A stretch of 64,000 nucleotides of DNA, taken from assembly GCA_005776725.1 (NCBI GenBank), contig SXOO01000280.1, forward strand, positions 7,425 to 71,424, read 5' to 3'. This document shows positions 5,605-40,500 of this stretch, in pieces. Below the pieces are notes generated by a model. The model made no database searches. It was not told the DNA's origin and saw nothing but the letters and a program-made list of their open reading frames with translations. Both the position numbers and the translations under genes were made by a program. The stretch comes from Pseudomonadota bacterium. GTDB lineage: Bacteria > Myxococcota_A > UBA9042 > GCA-2863065. Positions within the stretch are counted from its first letter, which is position 1; the number at the start of each line of letters is the position of its first letter.

Positions 5605-5829
5605 TCGGTCGCGCGGGCGGCCGCGGCCCCGCACCCGTCGCGGTCCGGCATTGGGGCGTTTCGCGCGCGGTGGAGGCCCAGGGGGGCCGAGGCGGTGCTC
5701 GTGGACGCGCAGGGTCGACGACACGCCAGCGGGGGCCTGACCGGGTGTACACCGGAGGCGACGAGGTGACACACTGCGCGAAGTCGTGGTTCGGTCCCCT
5801 TCGCCCGGGCGTCTCCCGGGTCTGACCTC

Positions 5830-13700: not shown

Positions 13701-13837
13701 TCGCGAGGCGCTCGGTCGCCCGCTGCGCGACTGGGTCCCTCTTCACTGGCGTGTACGCCGGCACCTCGCCGCAGGAGAAATTGGGGTGGCGCCGTCCGAG
13801 TGACGCATCAGACCCTGTCGAGTTACCCTGCCGGCGC

Positions 13838-20721: not shown

Positions 20722-23700
20722 TCCTCGGACCCCGCGTCTTCTCGGGTGACGGTGGACCCGTCGGGCGCGCGAGCGACCCTGAGGCACGTGGGCATCTGGC
20801 GGTTGAGCTCGGCGATGTGGCTCACCACGCCCACGAGGCGGCCGGACTCCCCGAGCGACAGGAGCGCCTCCGCCACCGGCTCGAGGCGCTCGGGATCGAG
20901 GGTGCCGAAGCCCTCGTCCACGAACAGGGCCTCGAGCTGCACGCGGCCCTGGGCTCGCTGGATGTGCTCGGACAGCGCCAGCGCCAGGGCCAGCGAGGTG
21001 AGGAAGGTCTCGCCCCCAGACAGCGTCTCGATCGCGCGGGACTCGCCCGCGTGTTCGGCGTCGACCACGCGAAAGCGGTCGCCCTCGAAGCCCAGCGTGA
21101 GCCGGCCTGCCGTCCACGCGCTCAGGCGAACCGACGCTTCGACGACCAGCTCCTTGAACGTCTCCTCGAGCAGATAGGCCTGGAAGCGGTCGGTCTTCAG
21201 GTGGGTGGCGAGCGAGTTCCAGAGCCGCTGGCGACCGTCGGCCGCGGACAGCTGTTCCGCCACCTCCGCGCGCTCGGCGAGGCGCCGGACGAGCTGGGCG
21301 AGATCGGTCTCCAGTGTGACCAGCGCGCGAAGGCACTCCTCGGCACGGCGACCCGCCTCCGCCTCTGCCTCGCGGGCGGCCTCGAGGACGGGTGCCGGGA
21401 CGCGCTGGCCGCCGAGCAGCTCCAGCGCTCGCGCCCGGCGAGACAACCAGCTCATACGCGCCTCGCGGGCCTCGGTGACGCGTTGCTCCAGCGCCGCCGT
21501 GGCGCCGGGCTCGAGCCGCGCTCGTGCGACGCCCGCCCGATCGAGGCCCAGCCGCCCAAGCACCTCCGCGAGCGCCTGGACGGCGCGCGACGCCGCCTCC
21601 GCGTGCCGCGCGTGCTCCTCGTCGGCCATCGTGGTGGACGCCTCGGCGCGGGCGGCGTCGAGGCGCGCCGCGTCGAGAGTGGCGGCAGCCGCGGCCCGCG
21701 CAGCGTCGTCGGCCGCCACCTGCGCCTCCAGAGCCTCGAGGGCGCGCTCGGGGGAGGCGATGAGCTCGGGTTGAAGTCCCTCGACGACTTGCGGCGGGGC
21801 TCCCAGCACGGCCGCCTCGGGGTCTGGGGGTCGCTGCTCACTGGAGAGCGCCTCCAAGTTCCGTTGGCGCTGGTCCAGCCCGGCCAGCTCGGCGGCCAGC
21901 TCGGCCACGAGCCCCTGTTCGCGAGCCAGCGCGGCTGCGGCCCCCTCGTGTTCGCGCGCCGCGAGCTGCATCGCCTGCTTTGCCGCAGCTAGGGCCTGGC
22001 CCTGCCGCTCGGCCTCGCGGGCCTCGGTCGTGGCGCGCTCCGCGGCAGCGAGCACCTCCTCGGGTTCGGCGCCGAGCGTGGCGCGGGCCGCCTCGAGCGA
22101 GCGCTGGCGGTGATCTCGATCCGCCTGCACGCCGGCTAGGAGCTGCTCGGCCGCCTGGATCTGCGCCTCGGCCTGGTGCACGGCGCGCTCCATCGCCATG
22201 GCATCGGCCTCCGCCAGCGCGAGCCGCCGGCGCGCGGCGTCCAAGGCGGCCACGTCCACGTTCAGCGGCGGAGGCAGACCCAAGACCGTGGCCTCGCAGA
22301 CGGGACAAGGCGACCCGACCGCCAGGGTGGCCCGCAGCTTCGACGCGGGGAGCTGGTGCGCTGACGCCTCGAGGTGAGCCACCGTCTCAGCGAGTCCCCG
22401 CACGCTCGCCCCGGCGACCCCCAAAGCCCGACGGCGCTCGCCCACGGCCAGGTCCCGCGTGGCCAGCTCCGCGAGCTGCCGCTCGACGGCGCGGCGCGCC
22501 TCGGCCAGCAGGGGCCGCTCCGCGAGCAAGACCCGCGCCACGGGATCGAGGCGGGCGAGGCGATCCAGCGATTCCCGGTCCACGGTGCGCTGTGCCTTCT
22601 CGGCGGTGGCGACCGCCTCCGCGCACGCGTCGAGCCGGCGCTTGGCGCCCCGCTCGGCGGCCTCAGCGGCCTCGCAGCGCGGCAACGCGGCAGCCTGCCG
22701 CGCCGTGACGGCCTCGCGTTCGCGGCGTAGCCCGGCTACTGCGAGGAGGCGAGGGAGCGCGGCGCGCAGCGCGTCGCGCCGGGAGCGCAGCCCGAGATCG
22801 GGCCCGACGTTGGCGGCTTCTGCCGTGTGGAGGCGCTCCCGTGCGCGCCGGGAAACGACCCCGAGACCCGCGGCGCGCAGTCGGGATGCCTCGGCCACGG
22901 CTTCCGCCTCTGCCGCCGCGTCCAGGAGAGGCGCCGCCGGCGCGACACGACGGGCCTCGCTCAGACGCTCCTGGTCCGCCGCGAGCTGTGCCGCCTCGGC
23001 CTCCGACTCGGACAAGGCGGCGTCTGCCGCGTCGAGCTCCAGGGTGGCCTCGGCGAGCGCCGCCATCCGTGCCGTGAATGAGCGCGCCGCCGCCGCGGCC
23101 TCTCGCGCCTCGTCCACTGAGGCGCGGGCTTGCACGAGCTCCGCTTCGATGGCCTCCTTGGCGGCGGGCTCGACGCCGGCGAACTCGCGAGCCAGCCGCG
23201 CCTCGAACGCCGCGACCTCGAGCTTCGCCGACCCGTGCCGCGTGGACGCCTCGGCTCGCATCCGCTCGTAGACCTCGAGCCCGAGCAGCCCGGTGAGGAC
23301 CCTACGGCGCTCGGTGTGCTCACCGCGCAGGAAGCGGTCGAACTCGCCCTGCGGCAAGACGACCGCGCGACAAAACGCGCTGAAGTCGAGGCCAAGGAGG
23401 CGCACCACAGCGTCGTTCACCGGGCGCACGCCCTCGGCCAGGATCCGTGGGTCCTCTGGGTTGGTGATCCGCTCGAGCTGCGCCTCGGTGGGGCGCGTCC
23501 CGCGATAGATCCCCCGAGCCACCCGGTACCGCTCTCCGCGCAGCGCGAAGTCCAGCACCACCGAGAGCCGCTCCTGGCCTGTGGTGATGAGCTCCCTCAC
23601 GGCTTTGCCGGTGCGCGGCACCTCGCCGTAGAGCGCGAAGAGGAGCGCGTCGAGGATCGACGACTTGCCCGCACCCGTGGCGCCCCCGATGGAGAAGACC

Positions 23701-25977: not shown

Positions 25978-28050
25978 GTGAGTCCTCGTTTCGCGCTTCT
26001 GCTCGTGCTCGCCGCCGCTTGTCGGTCTGGAGATCCCGCGCCCGCCGACGGGTGCGTGGCGGACAAGGACTGCAAAGGCGAGCGGATCTGCGTGCAGAAG
26101 GTGTGCGTCGACCCCACTCCAGCGGCCCCCGGCGCCGCAACAGCGCCCAGCGTGACCGCCCCGGCCGCCCCCAGCGCCGCACCGGCCACCCCCAGCGCCG
26201 CCCCAGCCGCTCCGCCAGTCCCTGACCGCCAGGCCGTCATCGCGTCGGCCCCCAGCCTCGGCGCCGCGGCGCCGGGCGTGCTCGTGATCTGGTTCGGGGA
26301 CCTCGAGTGCCCCCACTGCGCCCGCGCCACCCCGGTGGTCCGGAAGCTGATCGAGAAGCACGGCCGGCCAGACGGCACGGTGCGAGTCGAGTACCGGCAC
26401 AACCCGCTCGACCTCCACCCAGGCGCCCACCGGCTCGCCGTGGCCGCCGTGGCCGCGCACGTCCAGGGCCGCTTCTGGCAGCTCTTCGACAAGGTGGTCG
26501 AGGCGGGCGCGGGGCTCACCAACGATCGCCTCCAGGGCCTGGCCGACGGCGTCGGCATCGACGCGATCGCCTTCCACCGGGATCGGACCGCGCCGGAGGT
26601 GACCGCGCGGGTGGCGTCGGATCGGGCGCTCGCGCTCGCGCTGGGGGTCAAGGGGACGCCCGCGTTCTTCGTGAATGGGCGCCGCCTCGATGGCCAGGTC
26701 ACGTTCGAGGCCCTCGAGGCCCTCGTGAACGAGGAGCTCACTGCGCCGGTCGAGGGCGACCGCATCACCACGCGGACCCGCGCGAACAACGCGGAGCTGG
26801 CCGCTGTGCTCTTCGACGGCGCCACGCCCAAGCCCGCTCCGCCGCCGGCGCTCCCGCCGCCAGACGCCACGGTCTGGAAGGTCCCGGTGGACGCAGACGA
26901 CGCCTCGGAAGGACCCGCGGACGCCGCCGTCACGCTGGTGCTGTTCGGGGACCTCGAGTGCCCGTTCACCGCGCGGCTCTCGAAGACGCTGGAGTCGCTC
27001 CGTGAGCAGCGCCCCACCACCCGCCTCGTCTTCAAGCACCAGCCGCTGGCCGTGCACCCTCGCGCCGCTCGCGCCGCCCTCTATGGGGCGTGGGCAGCCA
27101 CGCACGGGCGCTTCTGGCCGTTCGCGCGCCACGTCCTCAGCGGCCAGCCCGCGCTGGCGGACGCCGATCTGGAGGCCGCGCTGCGGGCCGCCGAGGCGCC
27201 CGTCGAGGGGCTAGAGGCTGCCTTCGCCGGGCCGGCGCTGCGCGCTTCGATCGAGGCCGACCAGGCGCTGGCGGCACGGGTGGACGCGATCGGGACGCCG
27301 AACCTCTACGTGAACGGGCGACGACTCGTGGGCGCTCGTACCCTGGAGGAGCTGACGGCGCTGGTGGACGAGGAGGCCGCCAAGGCCGAGGCGCTGGCCA
27401 CCGCCGGGACCCCGCGGGCCGAGCTCTACGCCGCGATCATCGCCAAGGGTCAGGAGCGTCAGCCGTTGGGCGGGGCCGCGATCGACTTCGAGCTCACGGG
27501 CGCACCCCTTGGCGCCGCGGATGGCCCCGTGACCCTGGTGCTCTTCTCGGACTTCCAGTGCCCGTTCTCGAGCCGCCTCGTGCCGATCCTGGACCGCGCG
27601 ATCGCTCGGTTCCCGGGCAAGCTCAAGCTCTACTTCAAGCACTTCCCGCAGGACTTCCACACCGAGGCCCGAGCGGCCGCCGTGGAGGCGATCTGCGCCG
27701 CTGAGCAGGGCAAGTTCTGGGAGGTCTACCGGCAGTTCCTGGACGTGGAGCACCAGAAAGACCTGTCGGCGAAGGCGCGCGAGGGCCTCTTGAAGGCCGC
27801 GGGCGTGGACGTGGCCGCGGTGGGCAAGTGCGTGAACGAGAAGCGGGCCGACAAGGTGCTGGGCCGTGATCGCGAGGAGGCCGAGCGGGCCGAGGTGAAG
27901 GGCACGCCCACGCTCTTCATCAACGGGCGGCGCTTCACCTCCCCCACCGGGTACAACGACCGCTCCCTCGGGCGGGTGCTGGCCCAGGTGACGGGCCAGG
28001 CGCCAACCCCGGAGACCCCCAAGCCGGAGATCGCTCCCCCAGCGCCCTGA
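25978..28050 (+). CDS. lipoprotein with three tandem DsbA-like thioredoxin domains (active sites CPHC, CPFT, CPFS)
   Basis: Lipobox LAAAC with a Cys-rich N-terminal knot. Three repeats of ...V(L/T)LV(I/L)F(G/S)D(L/F)(E/Q)CP(H/F)(C/T/S)..., each with a downstream GTP(A/N/T)(F/L)(F/Y)(V/I)NGRR. Confidence 0.8.
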   Translation: MSPRFALLLVLAAACRSGDPAPADGCVADKDCKGERICVQKVCVDPTPAAPGAATAPSVTAPAAPSAAPATPSAAPAAPPVPDRQAVIASAPSLGAAAPGVLVIWFGDLECPHCARATPVVRKLIEKHGRPDGTVRVEYRHNPLDLHPGAHRLAVAAVAAHVQGRFWQLFDKVVEAGAGLTNDRLQGLADGVGIDAIAFHRDRTAPEVTARVASDRALALALGVKGTPAFFVNGRRLDGQVTFEALEALVNEELTAPVEGDRITTRTRANNAELAAVLFDGATPKPAPPPALPPPDATVWKVPVDADDASEGPADAAVTLVLFGDLECPFTARLSKTLESLREQRPTTRLVFKHQPLAVHPRAARAALYGAWAATHGRFWPFARHVLSGQPALADADLEAALRAAEAPVEGLEAAFAGPALRASIEADQALAARVDAIGTPNLYVNGRRLVGARTLEELTALVDEEAAKAEALATAGTPRAELYAAIIAKGQERQPLGGAAIDFELTGAPLGAADGPVTLVLFSDFQCPFSSRLVPILDRAIARFPGKLKLYFKHFPQDFHTEARAAAVEAICAAEQGKFWEVYRQFLDVEHQKDLSAKAREGLLKAAGVDVAAVGKCVNEKRADKVLGRDREEAERAEVKGTPTLFINGRRFTSPTGYNDRSLGRVLAQVTGQAPTPETPKPEIAPPAP

Positions 28051-28727
28051 TGTGGCAGTACTTCACCGAGACGCGCCGCCTCGGTGTGTCGCTGCTGATG
28101 GTCGCGCCGCTGCTCGTGGCGTACCAGGCAGGCCTCCTGATCGTCGGGGTCGAGGCGCTCAACGGCGCAGACTTCGTCACGCGTTACCTCCTCACCTTCG
28201 GGGGGCGCACCTTCCTGCTCCTCAACCTCGCGATCCTGTTCGCATTCGGCGTGGGCGTCGTGTGGCTGGACGGGAAGGGTCGCGGCACGGGCGATTACTT
28301 CATCCCCGTCTTCGTCGAGTCGCTCGCTTACGCGCTGGGCCTCGGCACCGTGGTCCTCCAAGTCATGGCGGAGGCGAGGCTCTTAGGCCCTGAGGCCGAC
28401 GGCACGCTCCTCTCGCGGCTAGTCCTCAGCGCCGGCGCCGGCATCCACGAAGAGCTGGTGTTCCGGCTGCTGCTCATGGGGGGCCTCATCGCGCTCGGGC
28501 GGCGGTTCGTAGACGCCCCCTTCGCGATCGGCGTCCTGGCGCTGGCGATCTCGAGCGTGCTCTTCTCACTCGCGCACTTCCGCGCAGAGCCCTTCGATAC
28601 CTTCGCGTTCTGGTTCCGCACTTTCGCCGGTGGGATCTTCGGCGTGCTGTACTGGGCTCGGGGCTTCGCCATCGCCGTCTACACGCACGCGTTCTACGAC
28701 GTCTTCGTCCTGGTGTTCCGACCGTAG
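28050..28727 (+). CDS. CPBP-family (CAAX/Abi) intramembrane metalloprotease
   Basis: ATG overlaps the upstream stop (TGATG). Multi-TM protein with the motifs HEELVFR, FSLAHF and HAFYD. Confidence 0.75.
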   Translation: MWQYFTETRRLGVSLLMVAPLLVAYQAGLLIVGVEALNGADFVTRYLLTFGGRTFLLLNLAILFAFGVGVVWLDGKGRGTGDYFIPVFVESLAYALGLGTVVLQVMAEARLLGPEADGTLLSRLVLSAGAGIHEELVFRLLLMGGLIALGRRFVDAPFAIGVLALAISSVLFSLAHFRAEPFDTFAFWFRTFAGGIFGVLYWARGFAIAVYTHAFYDVFVLVFRP

Positions 28728-28817
28728 GCAGGGGACCCCGCTCCACCCGCCTCACCGGGTTGCCGCGGACATCGCTCATCGTGGACGCGGGCAGCGAGTT
28801 CCAGGAGGATAGGGGGC

Positions 28818-30626
28818 ATGTGCGAACGGTACTCCCCTCTCCGACCTCTTCGTGTGCTCCGGCGCATCGCCCTCACGGCCTCGGTCGCCGCGGCCTGCTC
28901 CACGGAGGCCACCCCCGCCCCGGGCGCGAACGACGTCTCCGCGGCTGACACCGTCACTACCACGGACGGGACCATGGATTCGCCCGACGACGGCGTCGTA
29001 GGCGCCCATCCGGGCGACCCCATCGCCGCAGGCGCCCCGACGGTCGTGGGACGTGCGGTGGGGCTCGCCACGCTCACCCAGGCCTCTGGAGCGCTGTACA
29101 CGAGTCGCGAGCGCGAGATCGTCCGACTGGCGGCCGCTGGCCCAGAGCTCGTCGCCACGCTCGACGCGCCCGCGCTCGCCCTGACGGCGCAGGGCGACAC
29201 GCTGTACGCGGTCGACTCGGCCGGCGCCTGGTATCGGGTGCCGCTGGCGGGCGAGCCGCAGAAGCTCGAGGCCGGCCTCGTGGTCCAACGCCTTGCAGTC
29301 GACGGGGACCGCCTTGTTGCGGCCCTCGGCGCCGCGGGCGTGGCCGTGGCGCCCCTCGACCTCTCCATCGCGCCAGTCACGGTCTCGGCGCTGGGCGCCG
29401 TGCGCGCGGTGCTGCCGCTCGAGGACGGGCTCCGCGTGCTCGCCCGAGGGCAGGACGGCTTCGCGCTGGTGAAGGGCAGCTGGCCGGACGCGGTCGTTGT
29501 GTCGGAGGTGCCCACCAAGCTCCCCGCGTCGGCTGTGGCACGCGGCGCCGACGGGCTCGTCGTGGGCCTCGAGGCCGGCGGCTCGCTCCACACCCTGGTC
29601 TTCGAGGGCGAGACCCTGACCAGCGTGGGACTCACCCCCTACCCAGGCCCGGGGCTCGCGCTGGCTATCGCGGGCTCGCTGGCCGTGACGGCGGACTGGG
29701 ACCGCGTGGTGCTCTACGACGTCAGCAATACCGCCGCGCCGCGCCGCCTGGCGAGTGAGCACTTCGGGCAGCGGCGGGCGTTCGACCTCGTGGCCTTGGA
29801 CGCCACGCACGTGAGCGTGAGGGGCGCGGCCGAGGTGACCGAGCTCGCGCTCGACGCCACGGCCGTGGCACCCGAGCTGGCGCTGACGCCCCAGCGCATC
29901 CAGGTGGAGGCCACTGCCGATTTCGACGGCGGGTCGGCCGGCGTGCTCTTCCGCAACAAGGGCGCCCTGCCCCTGGAGGTGCGCGGGCTCACGGTGGATC
30001 ATCCGCGCCTCTCGCTGGACCTCGACACCTCCGCCGCGCTCTCGGTGGCGGCGGACGACGTCGCCTTCCTCGAGCTCAAGGTCACCGGCGCCGAGCCCCT
30101 GGAGGGCACCCTCAGCTTCAGCACCAATGAGCCGGGCGAGCCCAGCTACTCCCTCCCCGTCACGGTCAACCCGAAGCGGCTCAGCGTGGGCGACGTGGCC
30201 ACGCCCTTCTCCATGCCGGGCACGGACGGTGAGCTCGTCAGCCTGGGCGACCTCATGGGGCGCGTGATCCACGTAAAGCTGTTCAACGCCTACTGAACGA
30301 GCTGTCTCGAGGAGTTGCCTCGAGTCGAACAGCACATCCACCAGGCCCTTCTCGGAACCGCCTACACGCCGCTGGCCGTCCACGTCGGTGACGACGTCCC
30401 CAACGCGGTGGGCTCGAAGCGCAGCACGAAGATCACCTTCCCGATGCTGATCGACTACGACAACGCCGTGGTCGACGCCTACAACCGGATCGGCGAGCAG
30501 CTCACGCTGTTCCCGCTGGCCTACCTCATCGATAAGAAGGGCATCGTCCGGCACATCTACAAAGAGACCGAGCCGGAGCTCACGGCCCTGCGCGCGGACA
30601 TCGACGCGCTGCTCGCGGAGGAGTAG
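28818..30626 (+). CDS. putative selenoprotein: lipoprotein with a C-terminal TlpA/redoxin-like thioredoxin fold whose catalytic UxxC motif (U-T-S-C) is encoded with an in-frame TGA at 30294-30296
   Basis: The frame is the same on both sides of the TGA (the ORF-track pieces 28818-30296 and 30315-30626). The sequence ...VSLGDLMGRVIHVKLFNAY-U-TSCLEELP...FPMLIDYDNAVVDAYNRIGEQLTLFPLAYLIDKKGIVRHI aligns without gaps to the redoxin motif VVLLNFWATW-C-PPCRAEMP...PVLLD...PTTFLID. Confidence 0.6.
30303..30327 (+). promoter_or_regulatory. candidate bacterial SECIS hairpin immediately 3' of the in-frame UGA
   Basis: Perfect 6-bp stem CTCGAG/CTCGAG (30306-30311 / 30319-30324) with a 7-nt loop GAGUUGC containing GUU, plus a G-C and a G-U pair below a T-T mismatch. 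It starts about 10 nt after the UGA. Confidence 0.4.
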
Positions 30627-30637
30627 AACCCGCGCCC

Positions 30638-31816
30638 GTGTCGCCCGCTACCCTGCGAATCCGCACGCTCTACTTCGTCCTCTTCATGTTCCTCGGCGGG
30701 CAGGGCAACTACCTGCCGCTCTGGCTCGAGGCCCATGATTGGTCCGACGTCGACGTGGGTTGGCTGGGCGCCGCGCGCTCGGCGTGCCTCATCGTCACGC
30801 CGCTCTTCTGGGGACGGCTCGCCGACCGCGACGGCCACCCCGGTCGCGTCCTCGCGCTCACGGCCGTTGGCAGCCTCCTCGGCTTCCTCCCTCATCTCCT
30901 CACCACCGACTTCGCGCTGCTCATGGCCTCGACGATCGTGTTCCATGGGTTCCGGGAGGGGATCCTGCCCGCCACGGACACCGCCACGCTGCAGCTGGTG
31001 ACCCGTGAGGGGGGCACCTTCGGACGCCACCGGATCTACGGGTCGCTCGGCTTCATCGCGGGGGGCTTCCTCCTCTCGGGGATCCTGGCGCTGAGCAGCC
31101 GTGAAGCGACTCCTGCCGTGCTCACGGCGCTGCTCGCAGTCACCGTCTGGGTGGTCCTCCGGCACGTGCGGGCCGAGCGCCCCGACGCAACGGCCAGCGT
31201 GTCCGCGAACCCTGGCCTCCGCGCCGCGCTCCGCCACATCATGGCGCCGGCGGTCCTGCGGCTGTTCCTCGTGATCTTCCTGTGGCGCGTAGCGATGAGC
31301 GGGTTCTTCCAGTTCCTACCGCTGCACTTGAATCGCCTCGGGGTGCCCGATAGCGCCGTGTCTGCGTACTGGGCGGTGGGGGTGATCGCCGAGATCCTGC
31401 TCTTCGCCAAGGCGGTCCCGTGGTTCGGTCGGTTCGAGGCGAGGCACGTTCTGAACGCCTGCCTGGCGCTCTGTGCCATCCAGTGCGGCCTGTTTGCCGC
31501 GACCTCCTCGCCGTGGCTCTTCCTGGCGCTGATGTCGCTGCACGGCTTCACGTTCGGCATCGCCTTCTTCACGGTGGTGGTGTGGCTGTCGGCGCTGGTC
31601 CCCAAGACCGCCCTCGCCACCGTCCAGGCCGTGCTCTACGCGTTCGGCTTCGGGCTCGGGGGTGCCGTGTCGTCCGTGGCGGCAGGATACCTCTACGAGC
31701 ACTCCCAGGGCGCCGGCCTCTTCGGAGCGGCCGCAGCCGTCGCGCTGGCCAGCACGGTGCTGGGCGTGGTGATCCTTCGGGACTCGACCCGCTTCGGAGA
31801 CGCGGCTACTCGCTGA
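30638..31816 (+). CDS. MFS transporter
   Basis: About 12 predicted TM helices with MFS-like loop motifs (GRLADRDGHPGR). Confidence 0.7.
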   Translation: MSPATLRIRTLYFVLFMFLGGQGNYLPLWLEAHDWSDVDVGWLGAARSACLIVTPLFWGRLADRDGHPGRVLALTAVGSLLGFLPHLLTTDFALLMASTIVFHGFREGILPATDTATLQLVTREGGTFGRHRIYGSLGFIAGGFLLSGILALSSREATPAVLTALLAVTVWVVLRHVRAERPDATASVSANPGLRAALRHIMAPAVLRLFLVIFLWRVAMSGFFQFLPLHLNRLGVPDSAVSAYWAVGVIAEILLFAKAVPWFGRFEARHVLNACLALCAIQCGLFAATSSPWLFLALMSLHGFTFGIAFFTVVVWLSALVPKTALATVQAVLYAFGFGLGGAVSSVAAGYLYEHSQGAGLFGAAAAVALASTVLGVVILRDSTRFGDAATR

Positions 31817-33285: not shown

Positions 33286-33626
33286 CTCTCTACTCCGATC
33301 CGTTCAAGTCGGGCTAGGGCCGCAGCACCGGGGGTCTCTGTGGCGAATCCAGCGCCCGCACACCCCCCGATTCCCCACTCGCTGGCCGCGAGTTCGTGGT
33401 GCCGAGGTGTTGGGCGCCGACGTTAGGCGGCTGTCTCGAGGTGTCAACCTCGTTGCCCTCGAAGGGCACACCGGAAGGCTCACCCGCCAAGACACCGGGA
33501 CACCGCGCGGCCGATTCGGTTGACCTTGGGGAGCTACACTGCGATCCTGCGGCACATCGCCCACCGTCGGCCCAGAGAGCGGCCCCGACTTCGGCGCGAC
33601 GAGACCTCGCGAGGAGCGCGTCCAGC

Positions 33627-34547
33627 GTGAAGCACATCCGGTCCTGCCTCGTCCTCTGGCTGATCCTCGGTCCGTTGGCGGCTGCCGCGGCGCCACCAGC
33701 GGAAGGCAACGTCAACCTCGTGAACTTCTCGCCGGCCGGCGGCCGGTACCGCCTGTTCGCGGTCGAGTCCGCGGACGTCGGCCCCGCCTGGCAACCCTAC
33801 GGACACGTCCTGTTCCACGGCGCGCGGGACGTCCTTCAGCTCAGCGCTGGCGACCACACCGAGACGGTGGTCAAGGAGCAATATCTCGCCGACGTGAACG
33901 TTGGCGTGGGGCTCTTCGGCTTCCTGTCGCTAGACCTCACCCTGCCGCTGGGCCTGGCGATGAGCTCCGGCGACGGCGCCACCTCGCTCGCCGGGGTCTC
34001 TGGCGCCGGCCTCGGGGATATGGTCGTCCGCATCAAGGGCACCCCGCTCGCCACCGGGACAGCGGGCTTCGGCGTCGGCTTGGAGCTCGCGGCCACCGTC
34101 CCCACCGGCGACGGCGACCGCTTCCGGGGAGACCCTGGCGCAGGCCTCATCGCGGCGGCGATCCTCGATCACGCGTGGTCGATCGCGCGCCTCTCGCTCA
34201 ACCTCGGCGTCCGGATTCGGTTCGAGGAGAGCTCCTACCTCAGCGCCACGTTCGGGAACGAGCTCACCTTCGGCCTCGGCGTCCTGGTCGAGCTCTTCGA
34301 CCGCCGCCTCGGCCTCGCCTTCGAGCTCCAGGGTCGCACGCCGCTCACCGCGGAGGCCTTCGACAACACCAACACCACAGCCGTCGAGATCATGCTCGGG
34401 CCGCGCTGGTGGATCATCGATTCACTGGCCTTCGAGCTCGGGCTCGGCGCCGGGTTGGTCCAGGGCCTCGGAGCGCCCACGTTCCGCTTCAACACGGGCT
34501 TCGTCTGGGCGCCAGCGGCCCTCGCAGCGCCGACGGGAACACCATGA
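33627..34547 (+). CDS. secreted beta-rich (putative outer-membrane barrel-like) protein, homologous to the penultimate domain of the two downstream giant proteins
   Basis: GTG with SD gaggag. Signal peptide, alternating Gly/hydrophobic pattern, C-terminal ...[11 protein letters not shown]. Colinear with giant1 (about 41091-41930) and giant2 (about 49186-49990), sharing [31 protein letters not shown] and GAGLVQG. Confidence 0.65.
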
Positions 34548-37500
34548 CGAGAGTCCTCTTCACCAGCCTCCTACTGGCCGCGCCCTTCGCGCGCGCCGCG
34601 GAAGATTGCGCGAACGGCATCGATGACGACGCCGCCGGCGGCGCGGACTGCGCGGATCCGGCCTGCGCGGCCGACCCGTTCTGCTCGCCCTGCAACGTCG
34701 ACCTCACGTTCGACACCGGCCAGGGTCCGGTCACCGTGCCCACGGCGGTCTTCACCTGGGCCCAGGCCACCGGCGACGGGCTCATCGCCTCGGGCGGGCT
34801 CGCGGGCCTCACCCCATCGGCGGTGTCCGACGTGTTCACGGTGCCGGTCGCGGTGCCAGCGGCGGGCGAAGCGCCCAGCCCGCGCGTGGAGGTGGTGTTC
34901 TCGCTGAAGAGCAAGGCGTCCGCCGAGGACACGCACCAGGACACCTTCACGGTCTGCGTCGGCGTGCCGTGTACGAAGGACACCCCCAACCCGCTCTACC
35001 GCACGAGCCGCGACACCACTCCAGGCCTGGCCCCTTTCGGCGTGCCCAGCCCGCCATCGTTCAATGACGGTGTTTTCGACCACGTCTTCCTCGACCTCAC
35101 GGCCCACGCTGGGTCCACCGTGACGCTCGCGTTCGCCATCGACGCGCCCGCAGGGGGCTCCGCCGGGCGAAAGGGTCTCCGCGTGTCACGCCTGATCGTC
35201 GGGTCGGACGTTGACGTAGACGGCGCCTTCGAGGGCGTCGCGGGCAGCTGCGACCGCTGCTGGGACGCCGACAAGGACACCTACGTCGACGCCGCGGGCC
35301 CGGCCACCGCGGCCGAGTGCACCGCCCCCGACCTGGACTGCGACGACACCAACGCCGCCGTGAACCCCGCCGCCGCAGAGCAGTGTGGCGTGGTGGGAGA
35401 CGACGACTGCGACGGCGTCGCCGACGCGCTCGACTCGGACTGCGGCGTGGAGGACTGCGCCAACGGGGCAGACGACAACGGCGACGGTCAGGTCGACTGT
35501 GCGGACGTCACCTGCGGGTCGGACGCCGCGTGCGCCCCATGCGGCACTGTCCTCAATCTCAACCGCGGCGGCGCGGCCTTCGTGGCCGCCGACGACAACC
35601 CCGACGCCAACGCCGCGACACGCCTCTTCACCCACGGGCCGAACCCCTCGCTCCCCACCGAGATCGGCTGGTGGACCGCCCGCACGGGCACGGTGAGCAC
35701 ACACTCGGGCGTGAAGCCGGTGCATGCCACGCTCACCCGCAGCTTCGATGTCTCGTCCGGCTCGCTCAGCCCCAGCCTGCGCGTGTCGTACCGCCTCCGC
35801 GGCGAGGCCGCGGCCGGCAAGGACGTGTTCGGCGTGTGCTTCAACACGCCCGCGACGGAGTGTCGGGCCGACGCCCCGGCGAGCGCCCTGGCCTTCTCGA
35901 CGCACGTCGACACCGCAGCCACCGGCACCACGAACATCGACGTGCCCCTGCCGGCGAACAGCGCGGGCAAGACGGTGTCGGTGACGCTGTTCTACGACAC
36001 GGTCGACGGCGCCAATAACGCGAACGCCGGCCTCTTCATCGACGCCGTGAACGTGGCCAGCGACGCCGACGCGGACGGCGCGTCCGAAGACTCGGTCACG
36101 CAAGGGTGCGACCGCTGCGTGGACCAGGACCTGGACACGTTCGGCCGTGAGGGGATCCCCGGCGTCTATGTGTCTGAGTGCGCGTCCAACAAGCGCGACT
36201 GCGCGGACACCATCGCCACGGCCTTCCCGGGAGCTACCGAGCTCTGCGACGGGACCATCGACCACGACTGCGACGGCAAGGCAGACGCGGACGACAGCGA
36301 CTGCACCACCTGCGGAGACGGCGTCGCCAGCGCCTCAGAAGAGTGCGACGACGGCGCCAAGATCTCGGGCGACGGCTGCAGCGCCAGCTGCGAGCTCGAG
36401 GCGAACGCGCTCGTCCTGAGCGAGCTCCACTTCACGAAGCTCTCCCCCACCGCCTTCGGGGAGCAGTTCGTCGAGCTCCAGAGCCGCACCCTCGCCAAGA
36501 TCCACCTCGGCGGGCTCGCCGCGGGCCTGCGTCGCAGCACCGGCCAGGAGCTCCGCTTCGCGGATTGCGCCGCCGCGAGCCTCGTCCTCGCCGGCAACGG
36601 GCGCGTTGTCGTGAGCCTCGGTACCGCGGGGACCTCCGACGGCCTCAACGCGGCGATCCGTTGCGACGAGGACTTTCAGCTCGACCCGACCGGCGACGTA
36701 GTCACCTTGCTATCTGGCGCAGACACGCTCGACACGGCCGACGCGCGCCCCTTCGCGTGCGAGCTGTCCGAGGCCGCCGCCGCGGGGCGCGGGCGGTCGC
36801 TGGAGCGCCTGAACCCGGCCAGCAACCCGAACGACGCGGCGTCTTGGTGCCTCGCGTCCACGGCGACGAGCTACGCCACCTCGGGCAAGCACCACGGCTC
36901 GCCCGGGTCCGCGGGCGCCTGTGCGGAGCGCGCCTGTGACGGCGTGGACGACGACTGCGACGGCGCCACGGACGAGCTCCTTCCCGATACCGACGCGGAT
37001 GGGACCTGTAACGACCGCGACTGCGCGCCGCTGGTACCTTCTTGCGCGCTGGACTGCGCCACGGACGTGGACGGGGACTCCACGCCCGACTGCCGCGACG
37101 GCTGCATCGACTCGGACGGCGATGGCTGGGGCGTGGCCGGAGGCCTCCCGAGCTCCACCTGCAAGACGCTCGCGGGCGTAGCGAAGAGCGACTGCGAAGA
37201 TGATCTGGCGTTCGCCAACCCCGCGGCGTCGGAGGGACCCAGCGCCGCCTCCTGCCTCGATGGCGTGGACGACGACTGCGACGGCACGCCCGACTGCACG
37301 GACCCGAGCTGCGCCGGCACCGCCGCGTGCTCCGGTGAGGCGTGCGGCCTGCCGCTCACCCTCACCTGCGGCCAGGTCCGAGTGATCGAGCCGGAGGGCA
37401 ACGACTTCCCCTGTGGGCCCGGTGCGGACGCGGTACTCCGCTTCGTCGCGCCGCGCACCGAGCTGGTTCGCCTCGACGTGAAGAGCGGCGGCAGCCAGCA

Positions 37501-40500
37501 GTACGCCGGCCGGATCTTCGACGTCGCGTGCTCGAATCAGGCCTGCGCGCCGGGGATCGCAGACGCCGAGTCGTCCTGCCAGGAGCCCGGAACCGCCACC
37601 TTCTCGGCCGTGGCCGCCAAGGCGTACACGATCGTCGTGGACCAGCTGGCCAGCTGCTCCGCGTCGGGCGCCGCGCCGGTCGAGATCAAGCTGACCTGCG
37701 CCGAGCACTGCACCGGCGGGGTCGACGACGACGGCGACCTCTTGGCCGACTGCGCCGACAGCGACTGCGTGAGCCAGGCGGTGTGCGCAGGACAGGACTT
37801 CGACGGCGACGGCATCGCCAATGGTCTCGAGCTCACGTGTGGCGCCAGCCCCACCTCGCCGTTCCAGTCGCCCTCCCCCGCCGACGTTCAGAACCCGGAC
37901 AACGACAGCCAGCTCTCGTGCGTGGACGCGGACGACGACAACGACGCCGCCTCTGACGTCGTGGAGGCCGCTCAGTGCGCCGCCGGTGCCTCCGTGGACG
38001 CCAGCGTGTACCCCGGCGCCCCGCGCCAGTGCGGCAACGCGGGCGTAGACGCGAACTGCAATGGCATCGTCGACTCCGCGGAGGCCGAGTGCGGCGCGGT
38101 CGAGTCGCAGTGCGCCGACGCCAAGGACAACGACAGCGACGGCGCCAAGGACTGCGCCGACCCCGACTGCATCCCCTCGCTCGCCTGCGCCGCCCTGGAC
38201 TTCGACGGTGACCTGATCGCGAACACCATCGAGCTCGCGTGTGGGACCAACCCGCTCGACAAGAACCTGAAGCCCACGGCCACCGGCGCCGCCGATGGGG
38301 ACGGCGACACGGTCCCGAGCTGCGCCGACGCGGACGACGATGGCGACGGCTGGGACGACGTGGTCGAGTTCTCGTGCGCGTCGAACCCCGTGAACGCGTC
38401 CTCGACGCCGGTCGACACGGACGGTGACACCCAGTGTGACGCCGTGGACCCGGACGACGACGCGGACGGCTTCGCGGACCTCATCGAGGTGCAGTGCGGC
38501 TCCAGCCCCACGCTGGCGACCGAGACGCCCATCGACGCGGTCCGTGACCTCGACCTCGACGGCGTTTGCAACGCTCGTGACGTGGACCTCGACGGCGACG
38601 ACTGGACCAACGGCGTCGAGGAGGCCTGCGGCACCGACGTCGCCGACGCCAACGACAACCCTGAGGCCGCCGGTCTCGACGGTGACGACGACGGGCTCTG
38701 CGACGCGCTCGATGGGGACGACGACGGTGACACCTGGTCCGATGAGAAGGAGGAGCTCTGCCAGAGCGATCCGCTCTCCCCGGACTCCGTGCCGGCCGAC
38801 GTCGACGGCGACAGCATCTGTGACGCCTACGACGTGGACGCAGACGACGATGGCTGGCCCGACACGCTCGAGGTGCTGTGCGGCACCAACCCGCTGCTGG
38901 CCGCGAAGAACCCCAGCGCCGAAGGCCAGGACGAAGATGCCGACAAGCTCTGCGACAGCCTCGACGCCGACGACGACGGCGACGGTTGGTCCGACGAGGC
39001 CGAGGCGGTTTGTGAGTCCGACCCGAGAGACCCCAACGCGCTGCCGGCGGACCTGGACGACGACCACGTGTGCGACCTCCGCGACGACGACGACGACGGG
39101 GACGAAGCGATGGATGCCAGCGAGCTGATCTGCGGCACGGATCCGGCGGATGCCACCTCGAAGCCGATCGACACCGACGGAGACGGCGTGTGCGATCCGG
39201 TGGACACCGACGCCGACGAGGACCTGGACGGCTGGAGCAACGGAGACGAGCTGGCGTGCGGAACCGACCCGAAGGTGCCGGCCGACAAGCCGCTGGACAC
39301 GGACGCGGACAAGGTCTGTGACGTGCTCGACGACGACGACGACAACGACGGCTGGAGCGACCTGTCGGAGCTGCTGTGCGGCACCTCCGCCACCAACGGG
39401 GCCGTGGAGCCCGTGGACACCGACGGGGACGCCACGTGCGACGCCATCGACACGGACGACGACGGCGACGGCGCCTCCGACGCAGATGAGGCGCTCTGCC
39501 TCACGGATCCGAAAGACCCCACGGTGCTCCCCTTCGAGCCCGATCTCGCGGACACGGACGGCGACCAGATCGCCGACTGCGTCGATCCCGACGACGACGA
39601 GGACGGCATCCCGGACGTGGTCGAGCTCGGCGATACGAAGCTCGCGGACACCGACACGGACGGCCTGGACGACGGGACGGAGGACGCCAACAAGAACGGC
39701 GTCGTGGACACGGGCGAGACCGACCCCACGAAGGGCGACACCGACGGAGACGGACTGATCGACGGTGAGGAGGTTGCGAGCTGCTACGGCGAGGCCTGCA
39801 CGAAGACCTCCCCGACGTCGCGCGACAGCGACTCGGACGGCCTGTCAGACGCGGAGGAAGACGCCGACAGCGACGGGAGCGTGGGCGAAGGCGAGACGGA
39901 TCCGACCGTGTTGGACACAGACGGCGACACCTCGAGCGACGGGGTCGAGGTCGGCTGCGCGACCGACCCGCTCGACGCGACCAGCTTCCCGGTGGACAAA
40001 GACCAGTCCGGCACCTGCGATGGCGCCGAGGCCGACAGCGACGGCGACGGGATCGCGGATGGCGTGGAGACGCGCTGCAAGACGCTCCCGGGCAGCGCTG
40101 CCAGCGTGCCGCCGCTCACCGAGCTAGACGACAAAGACGGCGACGGTGAGCTCGACTGCTACGACACCGACGACGACGACGACGGCGCGATCGACGCGGC
40201 CGAGGCCCAGTGCGGCACGTCCACGAAGGACGCGGGCGCGGTGCCGTCACCCGCGGATCTCGAGGACACCGATGACGATGGCCAGCTCGACTGCGCCGAC
40301 GACGATGACGACGCGGACGGACTCGACACGAACACAGAAAAGATCTGGGGGACCGACGCGCTCGATGGTGACACGGACGACGACGGGCTCTCTGATGGCG
40401 CAGAGGTCACCATCCACGGCACCGACCCGACAAAGCTCGACACCGATGGCGACGGCGTGGCCGACGGCGTGGAGCTCGGGGTCACCGAGCCCGTCTTCGG

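What the first reader, a model, noticed from the sequence alone, without database searches (positions are those of the whole stretch)
28818..30626. A selenocysteine-type redoxin hidden behind an apparent stop: in-frame TGA at the first Cys of a TlpA-like CxxC motif
The 492-codon lipoprotein ORF ending at 30296 and the 103-codon ORF starting at 30315 are in the same frame. Read across the TGA, ...VIHVKLFNAY-U-TSCLEELP... aligns position-for-position with the redoxin active site ...VVLLNFWATW-C-PPCRAEMP.... The downstream piece supplies the rest of the thioredoxin fold (PMLIDYDNAVV...LFPLAYLIDKKGIV). UxxC redoxins are the commonest class of bacterial selenoprotein. A gene caller would split this into two ORFs and miss it.
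Basis: partly seen in the sequence, partly recalled or inferred. Interest (0 to 1): 0.85.

Follow-up and report, generated by a model that had tools for sequence, protein, structure and literature searches.

The report
Split selenocysteine redoxin lipoprotein gene
The two adjacent reading frames are almost certainly one gene for an exported lipoprotein whose redox centre uses selenocysteine encoded by an in-frame TGA; this is an ordinary kind of bacterial selenoprotein, but it belongs to a large family that gene callers cut in two.

Summary
The frame 28818-30296 ends in TGA and continues in frame to TAG at 30624-30626. One AhpC-TSA/Redoxin domain spans the TGA, and the TGA sits on the first Cys of the CxxC motif of ResA and other TlpA-like proteins.

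The selenocysteine reading is strongly supported.
- Every family member whose DNA I could read has TGA at this codon: eleven distinct sequences plus one near-duplicate, from contigs of 36-72% GC. Each then has x-x-Cys in frame and, where the contig reaches, a full redoxin domain.
- Of 142 family representatives, 126 end exactly one residue before this position and 15 continue with CxxC.
- A hairpin lies 16-17 nt after the UGA and meets the published bacterial SECIS criteria. It is kept by compensatory changes. A model built from it found two further members blind.

The protein has a lipoprotein signal, an LVIVD-type beta-propeller, an Ig-like domain and a UxxC redoxin domain.

Not shown:
- selA, selB, selC or selD in the source genome. 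None lies in the 64 kb window or the 9 kb beyond it, and the rest could not be reached.
- Selenium in the protein.

UxxC redoxins are a well-known selenoprotein class, so this is a new member of a known kind. The large, apparently Sec-dominated fused family is the more interesting by-product.

The parts
28803..28809 (+). Shine-Dalgarno-like AGGAGGA, 8 nt upstream of the ATG
   Evidence: Read directly from the sequence.
28818..30626 (+). Complete coding sequence of the proposed selenoprotein: 602 residues, ATG 28818 to TAG 30624-30626, with UGA 30294-30296 read as Sec493
   Evidence: Frame-specific GC3 is 0.89 before the TGA and 0.92 after it.
28818..28898 (+). Signal peptide with a lipobox-like ...VAAA-C27. 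The Cys27 codon is 28896-28898.
   Evidence: Sequence. AF2 predicts a helix at residues 10-21 followed by a low-confidence linker to about residue 60. 65 of 95 N-complete family members have a lipobox-like motif in the first 45 residues.
29013..29855 (+). Beta-propeller domain, about residues 66-346 (LVIVD-repeat type in relatives)
   Evidence: AF2 with a 142-sequence alignment gave pLDDT 88.9 and pTM 0.84, all-beta. Foldseek best hits are WD40, BamB and BT4663-type propellers. Pfam LVIVD matches relatives at 2e-23, 2e-17 and 3e-10. Pfam finds nothing in the window protein's own N-terminal part.
29877..30167 (+). Ig-like beta-sandwich, about residues 354-450 (HYDIN/ASH/DUF1573 type in relatives)
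   Evidence: AF2 strands 361-450. The N-x-G-x-x-P-L motif is nearly invariant in the family. Pfam HYDIN_VesB_CFA65-like_Ig, ASH and DUF1573 match relatives.
30186..30578 (+). Thioredoxin-fold redoxin domain (AhpC-TSA/Redoxin, TlpA/ResA-like), residues 457-587, interrupted by the TGA
   Evidence: Pfam; PDB: ResA, 3kcm; NCBIfam ResA subfamily 1e-11, below its cut-off.
30294..30296 (+). In-frame TGA, proposed Sec493, at the first (nucleophilic) position of the U-T-S-C motif
   Evidence: Aligned on the first Cys of CxxC. TGA is conserved in all twelve family loci read (eleven distinct sequences). 15 homologues of the same architecture have Cys here.
30303..30305 (+). Cys496 codon (TGT), the resolving Cys of UxxC
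   Evidence: Cys at +3 is conserved in all twelve loci read. No start codon lies between the TGA and this codon. TGT is a rare codon here, 12% of Cys codons.
30306..30324 (+). SECIS-like hairpin: 7-bp stem CUCGAGG/CCUCGAG with apical loop AGUUG. The loop starts 16 nt after the UGA.
   Evidence: -10.3 kcal/mol for the hairpin alone. bSECIS criteria are taken from PMC13188914. Covariation. Covariance model R1. Five rare codons fall within these nine codons.
30301..30333 (+). Extended hairpin with a possible lower stem, GCUGU...ACAGC, separated from the upper stem by a 4-nt bulge
   Evidence: Minimum-free-energy fold of -17.5 kcal/mol for UGA+45 nt. The lower stem is not conserved in register in the other members, so it is tentative.
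30513..30515 (+). Pro566 codon, in the F-P-L motif at the position of the cis-Pro loop of thioredoxin-fold enzymes
   Evidence: F115, P116 and L117 are invariant in the orthologue alignment. The motif aligns with the P of ResA '...sPlPttfLI'. Its role is inferred from knowledge of the thioredoxin fold.
30624..30626 (+). True stop codon (TAG) after the conserved C-terminus ...IDALLAEE
25978..28050 (+). Upstream neighbour on the same strand: a 690-aa lipoprotein with three DsbA-like domains (CPHC, CPFT, CPFS). It is the Cys form of a family that also has Sec members.
   Evidence: NCBIfam NF041057 'Rcas_1661 family thioredoxin-like (seleno)lipoprotein' at 3.7e-43, 148 bits against a cut-off of 190. 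Pfam DSBA x3 is precomputed.
28050..28727 (+). CPBP/Rce1-like intramembrane protease gene. Its start overlaps the neighbour's stop (ATGA).
30638..31816 (+). MFS transporter gene, 12 nt downstream. It is also immediately downstream in the 50%-identical orthologue L001; L007 has an unidentified ORF at the same position.

Best explanation
Positions 28818-30626 are a single gene for a 602-residue exported lipoprotein. Its parts are a signal peptide with a lipobox, a flexible linker, a beta-propeller, an Ig-like domain and a C-terminal TlpA/Prx-like thioredoxin-fold domain. The active site is Sec493-Thr-Ser-Cys496, with Sec encoded by UGA 30294-30296.

Proposed mechanism, with the status of each step:
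- When the ribosome reaches the UGA, the mRNA hairpin 30306-30324 recruits SelB-GTP-Sec-tRNA(Sec), so selenocysteine is inserted instead of termination. The hairpin has a 7-bp stem and a loop AGUUG that starts 16 nt after the UGA. This step is inferred; the RNA element and its conservation are shown, the machinery is not.
- Translation continues to TAG 30624. This is shown by the conserved in-frame domain.
- The protein is exported and lipid-anchored at Cys27. This is inferred from the lipobox.
- Outside the cytoplasm, the selenolate of Sec493 attacks a substrate disulfide or an oxidant. The resulting selenenylsulfide with Cys496 is then resolved. This is the chemistry of TlpA/ResA-type reductases with Sec as a stronger nucleophile, inferred from homology.
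- The propeller and Ig-like domains most likely bind or position the substrate. This is inferred; the substrate is unknown.

The gene is one member of a large family with this architecture in which most members carry UGA at this codon.
For: 1. One Pfam AhpC-TSA/Redoxin domain spans the TGA with full profile coverage. The TGA aligns on the first Cys of WCxxC in ResA and 3kcm.
2. All twelve family loci read (eleven distinct sequences; L082 and L031 are near-duplicates), from contigs of 36-72% GC and at least two phylum-level backgrounds, have TGA at this codon. Each then has x-x-Cys in frame and, where the contig allows, a complete redoxin domain ending at a later stop. The loci are the window, L001, L007, L008, L009, L088, L089, L090, L091, L082, L031 and L017.
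3. Of 142 family representatives (50% clusters), 126 end exactly one residue before this position, 15 continue with CxxC and 1 with DxxT. These are Sec/Cys pairs within one architecture.
4. The downstream piece is better conserved than the upstream part: about 80% against about 50% identity to L001. It has no frameshift or stop in any orthologue. dN/dS is 0.35-0.8, with dS deflated by GC3 of about 0.9.
5. The hairpin meets all four published bSECIS constraints: loop 3-9 nt, stem 4-16 bp, G in the first two loop positions followed by U, 16-37 nt spacing, and free energy of -7.5 kcal/mol or lower.
6. The hairpin is conserved in register with different stem sequences. On 10 sequences, 84% of cells are paired, 5 of 7 pairs have compensatory changes, and the covariation score is 0.69 against 0.21 when shuffled (0 of 500) and at most 0.21 when slid. 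RNAalifold predicts the same helix independently.
7. A covariance model of the element scores 52 bits at this site. The next best window hit, at 20 bits, is out of frame. The model found L017 and L031, which were not in the training set, in 763 kb of other loci.
8. Five rare codons (TGT, TTG, CCT, CGA, GAA) fall within the nine hairpin codons of a gene with 10.6% A/T-ending codons.
9. TGA is the normal stop of this genome: 22 of the 31 open frames listed end in TGA. The code is therefore not reassigned.
Against: - No selA, selB, selD or tRNA-Sec was found in the 64 kb window, in 9 kb beyond it, or in any fetched locus. The rest of the source genome could not be reached, so the Sec trait of the organism is unproven.
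- No Rfam SECIS family matches, even at E up to 10.
- The hairpin control is imperfect. 9 of 34 Cys-type TlpA genes, many of them closely related, also form a hairpin of at least 5 bp nearby, from the codons for R-Q-E-M-P. Those hairpins sit 2-3 nt closer to the codon and have GGAAA or AGAGA loops.
- One orthologue, L008, has only a 5-bp stem at -5.8 kcal/mol.
- DNA of the Cys-form family members was not available, so I could not test whether they lack the hairpin.
- TGA was verified by DNA in 12 members only. For the other roughly 115 truncated representatives it is inferred from where they end.
Confidence: 0.88

Rival explanations
1. The TGA is a genuine stop. The locus makes two polypeptides: a 492-aa lipoprotein and a separately initiated ~100-aa C-terminal piece. 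They either work apart or reassemble as a split thioredoxin fold.
For: This is how every gene caller annotated it. A TTG at 30315 lies just after a GAGGAG. The split is conserved across the family.
Against: The conserved resolving Cys sits two codons after the TGA, with no start codon in between, in all twelve loci read. The called starts of the downstream piece are inconsistent: 7 codons downstream in the window, 22 in L088, 2 in L089 and 49 in L091. GAGGAG is only about 2 nt from the TTG, too close to serve as a ribosome-binding site (sequence). A split would separate the two halves of the CxxC motif and leave the first active-site position empty. Fifteen homologues have one continuous chain with Cys there.
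Confidence: 0.04
2. The UGA is read through without selenocysteine, for example by near-cognate tRNA-Trp or tRNA-Cys or another suppression mechanism. The hairpin would then merely slow termination.
For: Sec machinery was not observed. Stimulatory hairpins downstream of leaky stops exist in other systems (general knowledge).
Against: The position is the catalytic Cys of a CxxC motif, where Sec/Cys exchange is the established pattern for bacterial selenoproteins (PMC13188914, PMC2398784). The hairpin has the geometry and the G-U loop motif of bSECIS elements, including a GGUC loop in L089. Trp or Gly at this site would inactivate the enzyme. A Cys codon would be one mutation away, yet about 89% of family clusters keep the stop.
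Confidence: 0.05
3. It is a pseudogene: a nonsense mutation inactivated a former Cys-type redoxin lipoprotein.
For: A TGC or TGT to TGA change needs a single substitution. Only the N-terminal piece is annotated.
Against: The same TGA occurs in orthologues at 50-80% identity and in distant members from other phyla. Downstream frames are intact and conserved, dN/dS is below 1, GC3 is 0.92 and the C-terminus is conserved.
Confidence: 0.02
4. It is a sequencing or assembly artefact, or the genome uses a code in which TGA is a sense codon.
For: None specific.
Against: The TGA is identical in four independent assemblies. 22 of the 31 open frames listed end in TGA, including genes with full-length Pfam matches.
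Confidence: 0.01

Closest known systems
[quoted passage not shown] In the GOS survey these are 'Prx-like 1/3' (PMC2398784).
   Same: The Pfam domains are the same (PF00578 and PF08534). Sec is at the first position of UxxC. The SECIS-type hairpin lies directly downstream in the coding region. Homologues carry Cys at the same position.
   Different: Here the redoxin domain is the C-terminal ~150 residues of a 602-residue lipoprotein that also has an LVIVD-type beta-propeller and an Ig-like domain. No NCBIfam selenoprotein model matches it. No held paper pairs 'LVIVD' with 'selenoprotein'. Within this architecture, Sec forms outnumber Cys forms by about 8 to 1, whereas the catalogue states that Cys homologues are usually far more abundant. 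I could not check whether the catalogue's example accessions share this architecture.
ResA / TlpA / CcmG (DsbE): extracytoplasmic Cys-type thiol-disulfide reductases of Bacillus, Bradyrhizobium and others
   Same: These are the best solved-structure matches: ResA at E 2e-9 and 3kcm at 1.5e-10. They share the W/Y-[C/U]-x-x-C-x-x-E-x-P active-site stretch, the cis-Pro loop and an extracytoplasmic location.
   Different: Identity is about 25-30%. NCBIfam scores are far below the family cut-offs: ResA 45 bits against 170, TlpA 24.5 against 230. This protein has Sec instead of Cys, a large N-terminal propeller plus Ig module, and NAY in place of the usual WxxW before the active site. No cytochrome c maturation or CuA assembly genes are adjacent.
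NF041057 'Rcas_1661 family thioredoxin-like (seleno)lipoprotein', called 'DsbG-like protein' (UxxC) in PMC13188914
   Same: It is a lipoprotein with a thioredoxin-fold domain, some members have UxxC Sec, and a member of the family is encoded directly upstream in the window (25978-28050).
   Different: It is a different family, DsbA-like rather than TlpA-like. The window's copy is a triple-domain Cys form (CPHC) scoring below the model's cut-off.
E. coli fdhF/fdnG-type bacterial SECIS elements
   Same: They are stem-loops inside the coding region shortly after the UGA, with an essential G-U in the apical loop. One family member, L089, even has a GGUC loop (the comparison with fdhF is from my own knowledge).
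   Different: There is no sequence similarity, and no Rfam SECIS model matches. SelB binding has not been tested.

Membership tests
Bacterial selenoprotein gene (Sec-UGA decoded through a bSECIS element) | An in-frame UGA aligned with a catalytic Cys in homologues (a Sec/Cys pair) | tested here: met
   The U aligns on the first Cys of CxxC in ResA and 3kcm. Fifteen homologues of the same architecture have CxxC there.
Bacterial selenoprotein gene (Sec-UGA decoded through a bSECIS element) | UGA conserved in orthologues, with conserved coding sequence downstream | tested here: met
   All twelve loci read (eleven distinct sequences). 126 of 142 representatives end at this codon. The downstream frame is intact and dN/dS is below 1.
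Bacterial selenoprotein gene (Sec-UGA decoded through a bSECIS element) | A stem-loop meeting the bSECIS consensus: loop 3-9 nt, upper stem 4-16 bp, G in the first two loop positions, 16-37 nt from the UGA, free energy of -7.5 kcal/mol or lower | tested here: met
   Criteria are from PMC13188914. The window hairpin has a 7-bp stem, loop AGUUG, 16 nt spacing, and -10.3 kcal/mol alone or -17.5 with context.
Bacterial selenoprotein gene (Sec-UGA decoded through a bSECIS element) | Evolutionary support for the RNA structure (compensatory changes) | tested here: met
   5 of 7 pairs are compensatory; covariation is 0.69 against 0.21 shuffled (0 of 500). RNAalifold predicts the same helix. Caveat: some Cys-type TlpA genes form incidental hairpins nearby.
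Bacterial selenoprotein gene (Sec-UGA decoded through a bSECIS element) | selA, selB, selC (tRNA-Sec) and selD present in the same genome | not testable with these tools
   None lies in the 64 kb window or in 9 kb beyond it.
Bacterial selenoprotein gene (Sec-UGA decoded through a bSECIS element) | Selenium physically present in the full-length protein | not testable with these tools
   This needs 75Se labelling or mass spectrometry.
Rfam SECIS families | A match to a curated SECIS covariance model | tested here: not met
   No match at gathering score or at E up to 10 in the window site and six orthologous loci. [quoted passage not shown]
TlpA-like / ResA-like thioredoxin-fold superfamily (Pfam AhpC-TSA PF00578, Redoxin PF08534) | A full-length match to the domain profile above the gathering score | tested here: met
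   With U read as C: AhpC-TSA 46.6-50.7 bits (cut-off 26) over profile positions 1-124 of 124; Redoxin 39.5-43.9 bits (cut-off 26.6).
TlpA-like / ResA-like thioredoxin-fold superfamily (Pfam AhpC-TSA PF00578, Redoxin PF08534) | A CxxC-type active site and the cis-Pro loop | tested here: met
   U493-T-S-C496 is followed by an invariant E and P, and F-P566-L is invariant.
ResA or TlpA proper (NCBIfam NF002854, NF047696) | A score above the curated family cut-off (orthology) | tested here: not met
   45 bits against 170 and 24.5 against 230. It is a superfamily member, not a ResA or TlpA orthologue.
Peroxiredoxin (typical AhpC/Bcp, PxxxTxxC) | A peroxidatic Cys within the P-x-x-x-T-x-x-C motif | tested here: not met
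   The motif here is K-L-F-N-A-Y-U-T-S-C. Sec occupies the Thr position and there is no upstream Pro (sequence). By motif it resembles the 'Prx-like' UxxC class rather than a true Prx.
Bacterial lipoprotein | A signal peptide ending in a lipobox with an invariant Cys | tested here: inconclusive
   The N-terminus reads ...RRIALTASVAAA-C27-STEA, with helix 10-21, and 65 of 95 family members have a lipobox-like motif. The match to L-[AS]-[GA]-C is loose (A-A-A-C), and no dedicated predictor was available.

The most novel reading that the evidence does not exclude
The window gene stands for a previously uncatalogued selenoprotein family: surface-exposed proteins that are either lipid-anchored or, in Ca. 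Neomarinimicrobiota, exported by the type IX secretion system. In them an LVIVD beta-propeller and an Ig-like domain are fused to a UxxC redoxin domain.

Selenocysteine would be the default state of the family, at about 126 of 142 clusters at 50% identity, rather than a rare variant of a Cys family. This runs against the general rule that Cys homologues greatly outnumber Sec forms.

It would also mean that essentially all members in public databases are mis-annotated as two genes.
Probability: 0.45. Interest if true: 0.6.

Novelty: new member of a known kind. Interest (0 to 1): 0.45.

Why it matters
For this locus, two 'hypothetical' ORFs become one interpretable gene: an exported selenoenzyme sitting next to a DsbA-like lipoprotein, a CPBP protease and an MFS transporter. 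It also marks the source organism as a probable selenium user.

More generally, the same split affects well over a hundred sequence clusters, from high-GC contigs (up to 72% GC) to Ca. Neomarinimicrobiota. A single profile plus the hairpin model could re-annotate them.

A family in which Sec is the majority state would be useful material for the open question of why Sec is retained rather than Cys. A propeller-tethered extracytoplasmic selenoredoxin would also be a candidate for a new substrate-specific redox activity at the cell surface.

Tried and rejected
- **Sec machinery.** ARAGORN found no tRNA in the window or in 13 related loci. Pfam scans of about 30 window ORFs found no SelA, SelB or SelD. 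I extended 9 kb past the window end through the 145.6 kb ENA contig and found nothing. Further walking was blocked by the look-up cap.
- **Source genome.** The scan of GTDB representative genomes returned no close orthologue, only Cys-type TlpA-like genes at 21-37% identity plus a few Sec-type ones. Cluster look-ups gave no organism names. A literature search for the assembly and run accessions found nothing. The taxon is therefore not determined. The window is about 70% GC and encodes giant OmpA-tailed proteins with MopE and TSP3 motifs, which is only a weak pointer.
- **Rfam.** No SECIS family matched at any threshold.
- **Word-indexed protein search.** It found almost nothing (2, 4 and 10 hits). 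The exhaustive HMMER search was needed to reveal the family.
- **Structure prediction.** AF2 with a 4-sequence alignment failed (pLDDT 49). The 142-sequence alignment gave pLDDT 89. The afdb50 fold library was unavailable.
- **Other candidates in the window.** A second in-frame TGA pair at 62520-62522 turned out to be an ordinary stop followed by a new signal peptide. The second-best hit of the hairpin model, at 20464-20489 on the minus strand, lies inside a helicase-like ORF with the TGA out of frame.
- **dN/dS.** It is below 1 but not very low (0.35-0.8). I attribute this to constrained synonymous sites at GC3 of about 0.9, so I do not lean on it.
- **Hairpin control.** Cys-type TlpA genes showed that hairpins in this region are not unique to Sec genes. 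The argument therefore rests on fixed register, loop motif, covariation and the blind model hits, not on the mere presence of a hairpin.
Full report
**1. The observation**

The ORF starting at ATG 28818 is preceded by AGGAGGA 8 nt upstream. It runs 492 codons to TGA 30294-30296, and the same frame stays open for another 109 codons to TAG 30624-30626. The 103-codon ORF that gene callers report from TTG 30315 lies in this frame.

An open frame after a stop means little in 70% GC DNA, as the many spurious ORFs show. The following points are not chance:
- With the TGA read as Cys, Pfam AhpC-TSA matches residues 457-580 over profile positions 1-124 of 124 (E 4e-12; 2e-13 for the isolated domain). 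Redoxin also matches.
- In phmmer alignments to solved structures (ResA 1st9, E 2e-9; 3kcm, E 1.5e-10), the TGA column sits on the first Cys of W-C-x-x-C. Cys496 sits on the second, followed by the usual E-x-P.
- Frame-specific GC3 is 0.89 before the TGA and 0.92 after it.
- The TGA is identical in four independent assemblies of this organism. P0008 was also reported on a 145.6 kb contig, which one search identifies as ENA ERZ27257034; I did not read the junction there.
- TGA is the usual stop codon in the window: 22 of the 31 open frames listed end in it. No general reassignment of the code is involved.

**2. Comparative evidence for recoding**

The word-indexed protein search found only fragments. 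The N-terminal pieces were the gene itself plus a 50%-identical protein of 506 aa. The C-terminal pieces were 84-108 aa. I read the DNA behind each. Five distinct orthologues all have TGA at the same codon:

| Source | Junction |
|---|---|
| window | NAY-U-TSC |
| L001 | NAY-U-LSC |
| L007 | NAY-U-TSC |
| L008 | NAY-U-MTC |
| L009 | SAQ-U-TSC |

Each continues in frame through a conserved redoxin domain. Invariant residues include the resolving Cys, E, P, TFP..ID and the FPL cis-Pro stretch. In the three orthologues at 77% identity or more in the redoxin domain (window, L001, L007), the protein ends in the conserved C-terminus ...IDALLAEE. There are no frameshifts or extra stops.

The post-TGA part is about 80% identical between the window and L001, against about 50% for the N-terminal part. 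Pairwise dN/dS is 0.35-0.8. That is a weak statistic here because synonymous sites are constrained. A pseudogene is excluded.

**3. The family**

An exhaustive HMMER search with the 492-aa piece found 179 cluster representatives at E of 1e-3 or better. I aligned 142 of them (A6). The outcome at the active-site position was:
- 126 end exactly one residue before it, with C-termini such as ...KLFNAY, ...YFATF, ...YFATW, ...IFSSL, ...FFASW and ...LFNGL.
- 15 continue as one chain with C-x-x-C, for example FNAQ-C-ESC and FASW-C-PTC.
- 1 continues with D-x-x-T.

I read the DNA for four distant truncated members chosen from different subgroups: L088, L089, L090 and L091 (GC 50-69%). All four have TGA, then P-x-C, and a redoxin domain in frame.

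Three more members turned up among loci fetched for other reasons. L082 is a metagenome contig. L017 and L031 are Ca. Neomarinimicrobiota MAGs with 36-45% GC. All three carry TGA at this codon and end in a type IX secretion sorting tail. L082 and L031 are near-duplicates.

In total, TGA is verified at the DNA level in all twelve loci read, which are eleven distinct sequences. For the remaining truncated representatives it is inferred from where they end.

**4. The RNA element**

Directly after the UGA the mRNA can form CUCGAGG-AGUUG-CCUCGAG (30306-30324). This is a 7-bp stem whose loop begins 16 nt after the UGA. It folds at -10.3 kcal/mol alone and -17.5 with a possible lower stem.

The published bSECIS model asks for a 3-9 nt loop, a 4-16 bp upper stem, a G in the first two loop positions (usually followed by G or U), a spacing of 16-37 nt, and a free energy of -7.5 kcal/mol or lower (PMC13188914). 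All are met.

The other members have a hairpin in the same register with different stems and loops:

| Stem | Loop |
|---|---|
| GCUGGGG / CCCCAGC | AGUUG |
| GUCUGGA / UUCAGAC | GUU |
| GUCCGA / UCGGAC | GGUC |
| CGGAGG / CCUUCG | AGUUA |
| UCCGGA / UUCGGA | GUU |

Statistical support:
- On ten sequences, 84% of cells pair, 5 of 7 pairs show compensatory changes (17 cells), and the covariation score is 0.69. Shuffled columns give 0.21 +/- 0.05 (0 of 500 reach the observed value), and slid registers give at most 0.21 (nine sequences; five).
- RNAalifold predicts the same helix without being told.
- A covariance model built from nine members scores 52 bits at the window site. The next window hit, at 20 bits, is out of frame inside a helicase-like gene.
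- In 763 kb of other loci, that model picked out the training members plus L017 and L031, which were not in the training set.
- In the window gene, five of the nine hairpin codons are rare (TGT 12%, TTG 3.5%, CCT 9%, CGA 9%, GAA 11% of their synonymous sets). This fits selection on the RNA.

Caveats:
- 9 of 34 Cys-type TlpA genes, many of them near-identical gammaproteobacterial genes, form an incidental hairpin of at least 5 bp. It sits 2-3 nt closer to the codon and has GGAAA or AGAGA loops.
- L008's stem is only 5 bp.
- No Rfam SECIS model matches.

**5. The protein**

With the deep alignment, AlphaFold2 gives a confident model of residues 1-492 (pLDDT 88.9, pTM 0.84). It shows a signal helix at 10-21, a low-confidence linker to about residue 60, a beta-propeller at about 66-346, and an Ig-like sandwich at about 354-450.

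Foldseek finds generic propellers of the WD40, BamB and BT4663 periplasmic types. In relatives, Pfam recognises LVIVD repeats, HYDIN/ASH/DUF1573 Ig-like domains, AhpC-TSA/Redoxin and, in Neomarinimicrobiota, Por_Secre_tail. The truncated database proteins match only positions 1-35 of the AhpC-TSA profile, so they are cut at the active site.

The N-terminus ...ASVAAA-C27-S is lipobox-like, as in most family members.

The protein belongs to the TlpA/ResA superfamily but is not an orthologue of ResA or TlpA; the NCBIfam scores are far below the cut-offs. It is not a canonical peroxiredoxin either, since it has no PxxxTxxC motif.

**6. Context**

The gene follows two others on the same strand: a 690-aa triple-DsbA-like lipoprotein and a CPBP/Rce1-like protease. 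The lipoprotein matches NCBIfam NF041057, a family with Sec members, and is a Cys form here. An MFS transporter gene starts 12 nt downstream. It is also immediately downstream in L001, and L007 has an unidentified ORF at the same position.

No DsbD/CcdA, cytochrome c maturation or sel genes lie in the window.

**7. Mechanism and confidence**

Shown:
- One domain is interrupted by a conserved UGA at the catalytic position.
- Sec/Cys pairs exist within the family.
- A conserved hairpin with bSECIS geometry shows covariation.

Inferred:
- SelB-dependent Sec insertion.
- Lipoprotein export.
- Selenenylsulfide chemistry at U493/C496.
- Substrate binding by the propeller-Ig module.

Not tested:
- Sec machinery in the genome.
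- Selenium in the protein.
- The substrate.

I put 0.88 on a genuine selenoprotein gene. The rivals are a split gene (0.04), non-Sec read-through (0.05), a pseudogene (0.02) and an artefact or code change (0.01).

**8. Novelty**

UxxC thioredoxin-fold proteins are among the most abundant bacterial selenoproteins. 'Prx-like 1' (PF00578, UxxC) had 225 Sec sequences in the GOS survey (PMC2398784). The catalogue in PMC13188914 lists TlpA-like, Prx-like and Redoxin UxxC entries. The gene is therefore a new member of a known kind.

Three things may be new:
- the fused propeller-Ig-redoxin architecture;
- its breadth, from high-GC contigs (up to 72% GC) to Neomarinimicrobiota;
- the dominance of Sec over Cys, about 8 to 1 among 50% clusters, contrary to the stated rule that Cys homologues are far more abundant.

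No NCBIfam model and no held paper covers this architecture. I could not check whether the catalogue's example accessions share it.

Noticed in passing
window 25978-28050 (+): A 690-aa lipoprotein with three DsbA-like domains (CPHC, CPFT, CPFS). It matches NCBIfam NF041057 'Rcas_1661 family thioredoxin-like (seleno)lipoprotein' at 3.7e-43, below the cut-off. It is a Cys-form relative of a known selenoprotein family, encoded directly upstream of the Sec gene.
   Followed up: partly
L017 10127-10129 and L031 1598-1600 (Ca. Neomarinimicrobiota MAGs); L082 4866-4868: Full members of the propeller-Ig-Sec-redoxin family in a different phylum (36-45% GC). They have U-PVC motifs and a C-terminal type IX secretion sorting domain instead of a lipobox. 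L017 and L031 were found blind by the hairpin covariance model.
   Followed up: yes
L026 (Chloroflexia), L027 (Actinomycetes), L032 (Dehalococcoidia); match regions starting at 1041, 10001 and 10001: Other TlpA-like genes with an in-frame TGA at the active site: 'FFRGTW*GSC', 'FSSW*GC' (with a Cys twin 'FSSWCGC' in L044) and 'MWASW*AC'. The last two resemble the known UGC-type TlpA selenoproteins. Their architecture was not examined.
   Followed up: no
window 13397-19102 (+): A 1901-codon open frame encoding a Cys-rich protein with many 'CDDGNPCT'-type repeats and long Gly-rich stretches. My GC3 filter missed it. The real start is probably the lipoprotein-like 'MNLRTLSAAAP...MVTGC' inside the frame.
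   Followed up: no
window 33524-42760 and 42673-50823 (+): Two giant proteins in tandem (about 3079 and 2717 codons) with MopE-type metal-binding motifs, a TSP3 repeat and C-terminal OmpA domains.
   Followed up: no
window 5770-6954 (+) and neighbours to about 11880: A multihaem cytochrome-like ORF (Cytochrome_C554, C7 and MtrC/MtrF domain hits) in a lower-GC stretch (0.67-0.69). It is followed by several ORFs with no Pfam match and by a TPR protein.
   Followed up: no
window 20464-20489 (-): The second-best hit of the hairpin covariance model (19.7 bits, rough E 0.009). It lies inside a DEAD-box-helicase-like ORF (19168-21336, minus strand) with the TGA out of frame, so it is a chance match.
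   Followed up: yes
L010, L011, L014-L016, L018, L020, L054, L057 (Cys-type 'FWASWCGPCRQEMP' TlpA genes): The codons for R-Q-E-M-P (CGG CAG GAA AUG CCG) form an incidental 5-8 bp hairpin just after the CxxC motif in some Cys-type genes. This is a warning for SECIS prediction in this domain family.
   Followed up: partly
L091 909-1646 (-) and 10521-13354 (-): Near a distant family member from a hydrothermal-vent contig there is again an Rce1/CPBP-like protease gene, plus two further AhpC-TSA/Redoxin genes, one of them fused to DUF6029. This may be a recurring neighbourhood; it was not tested.
   Followed up: no
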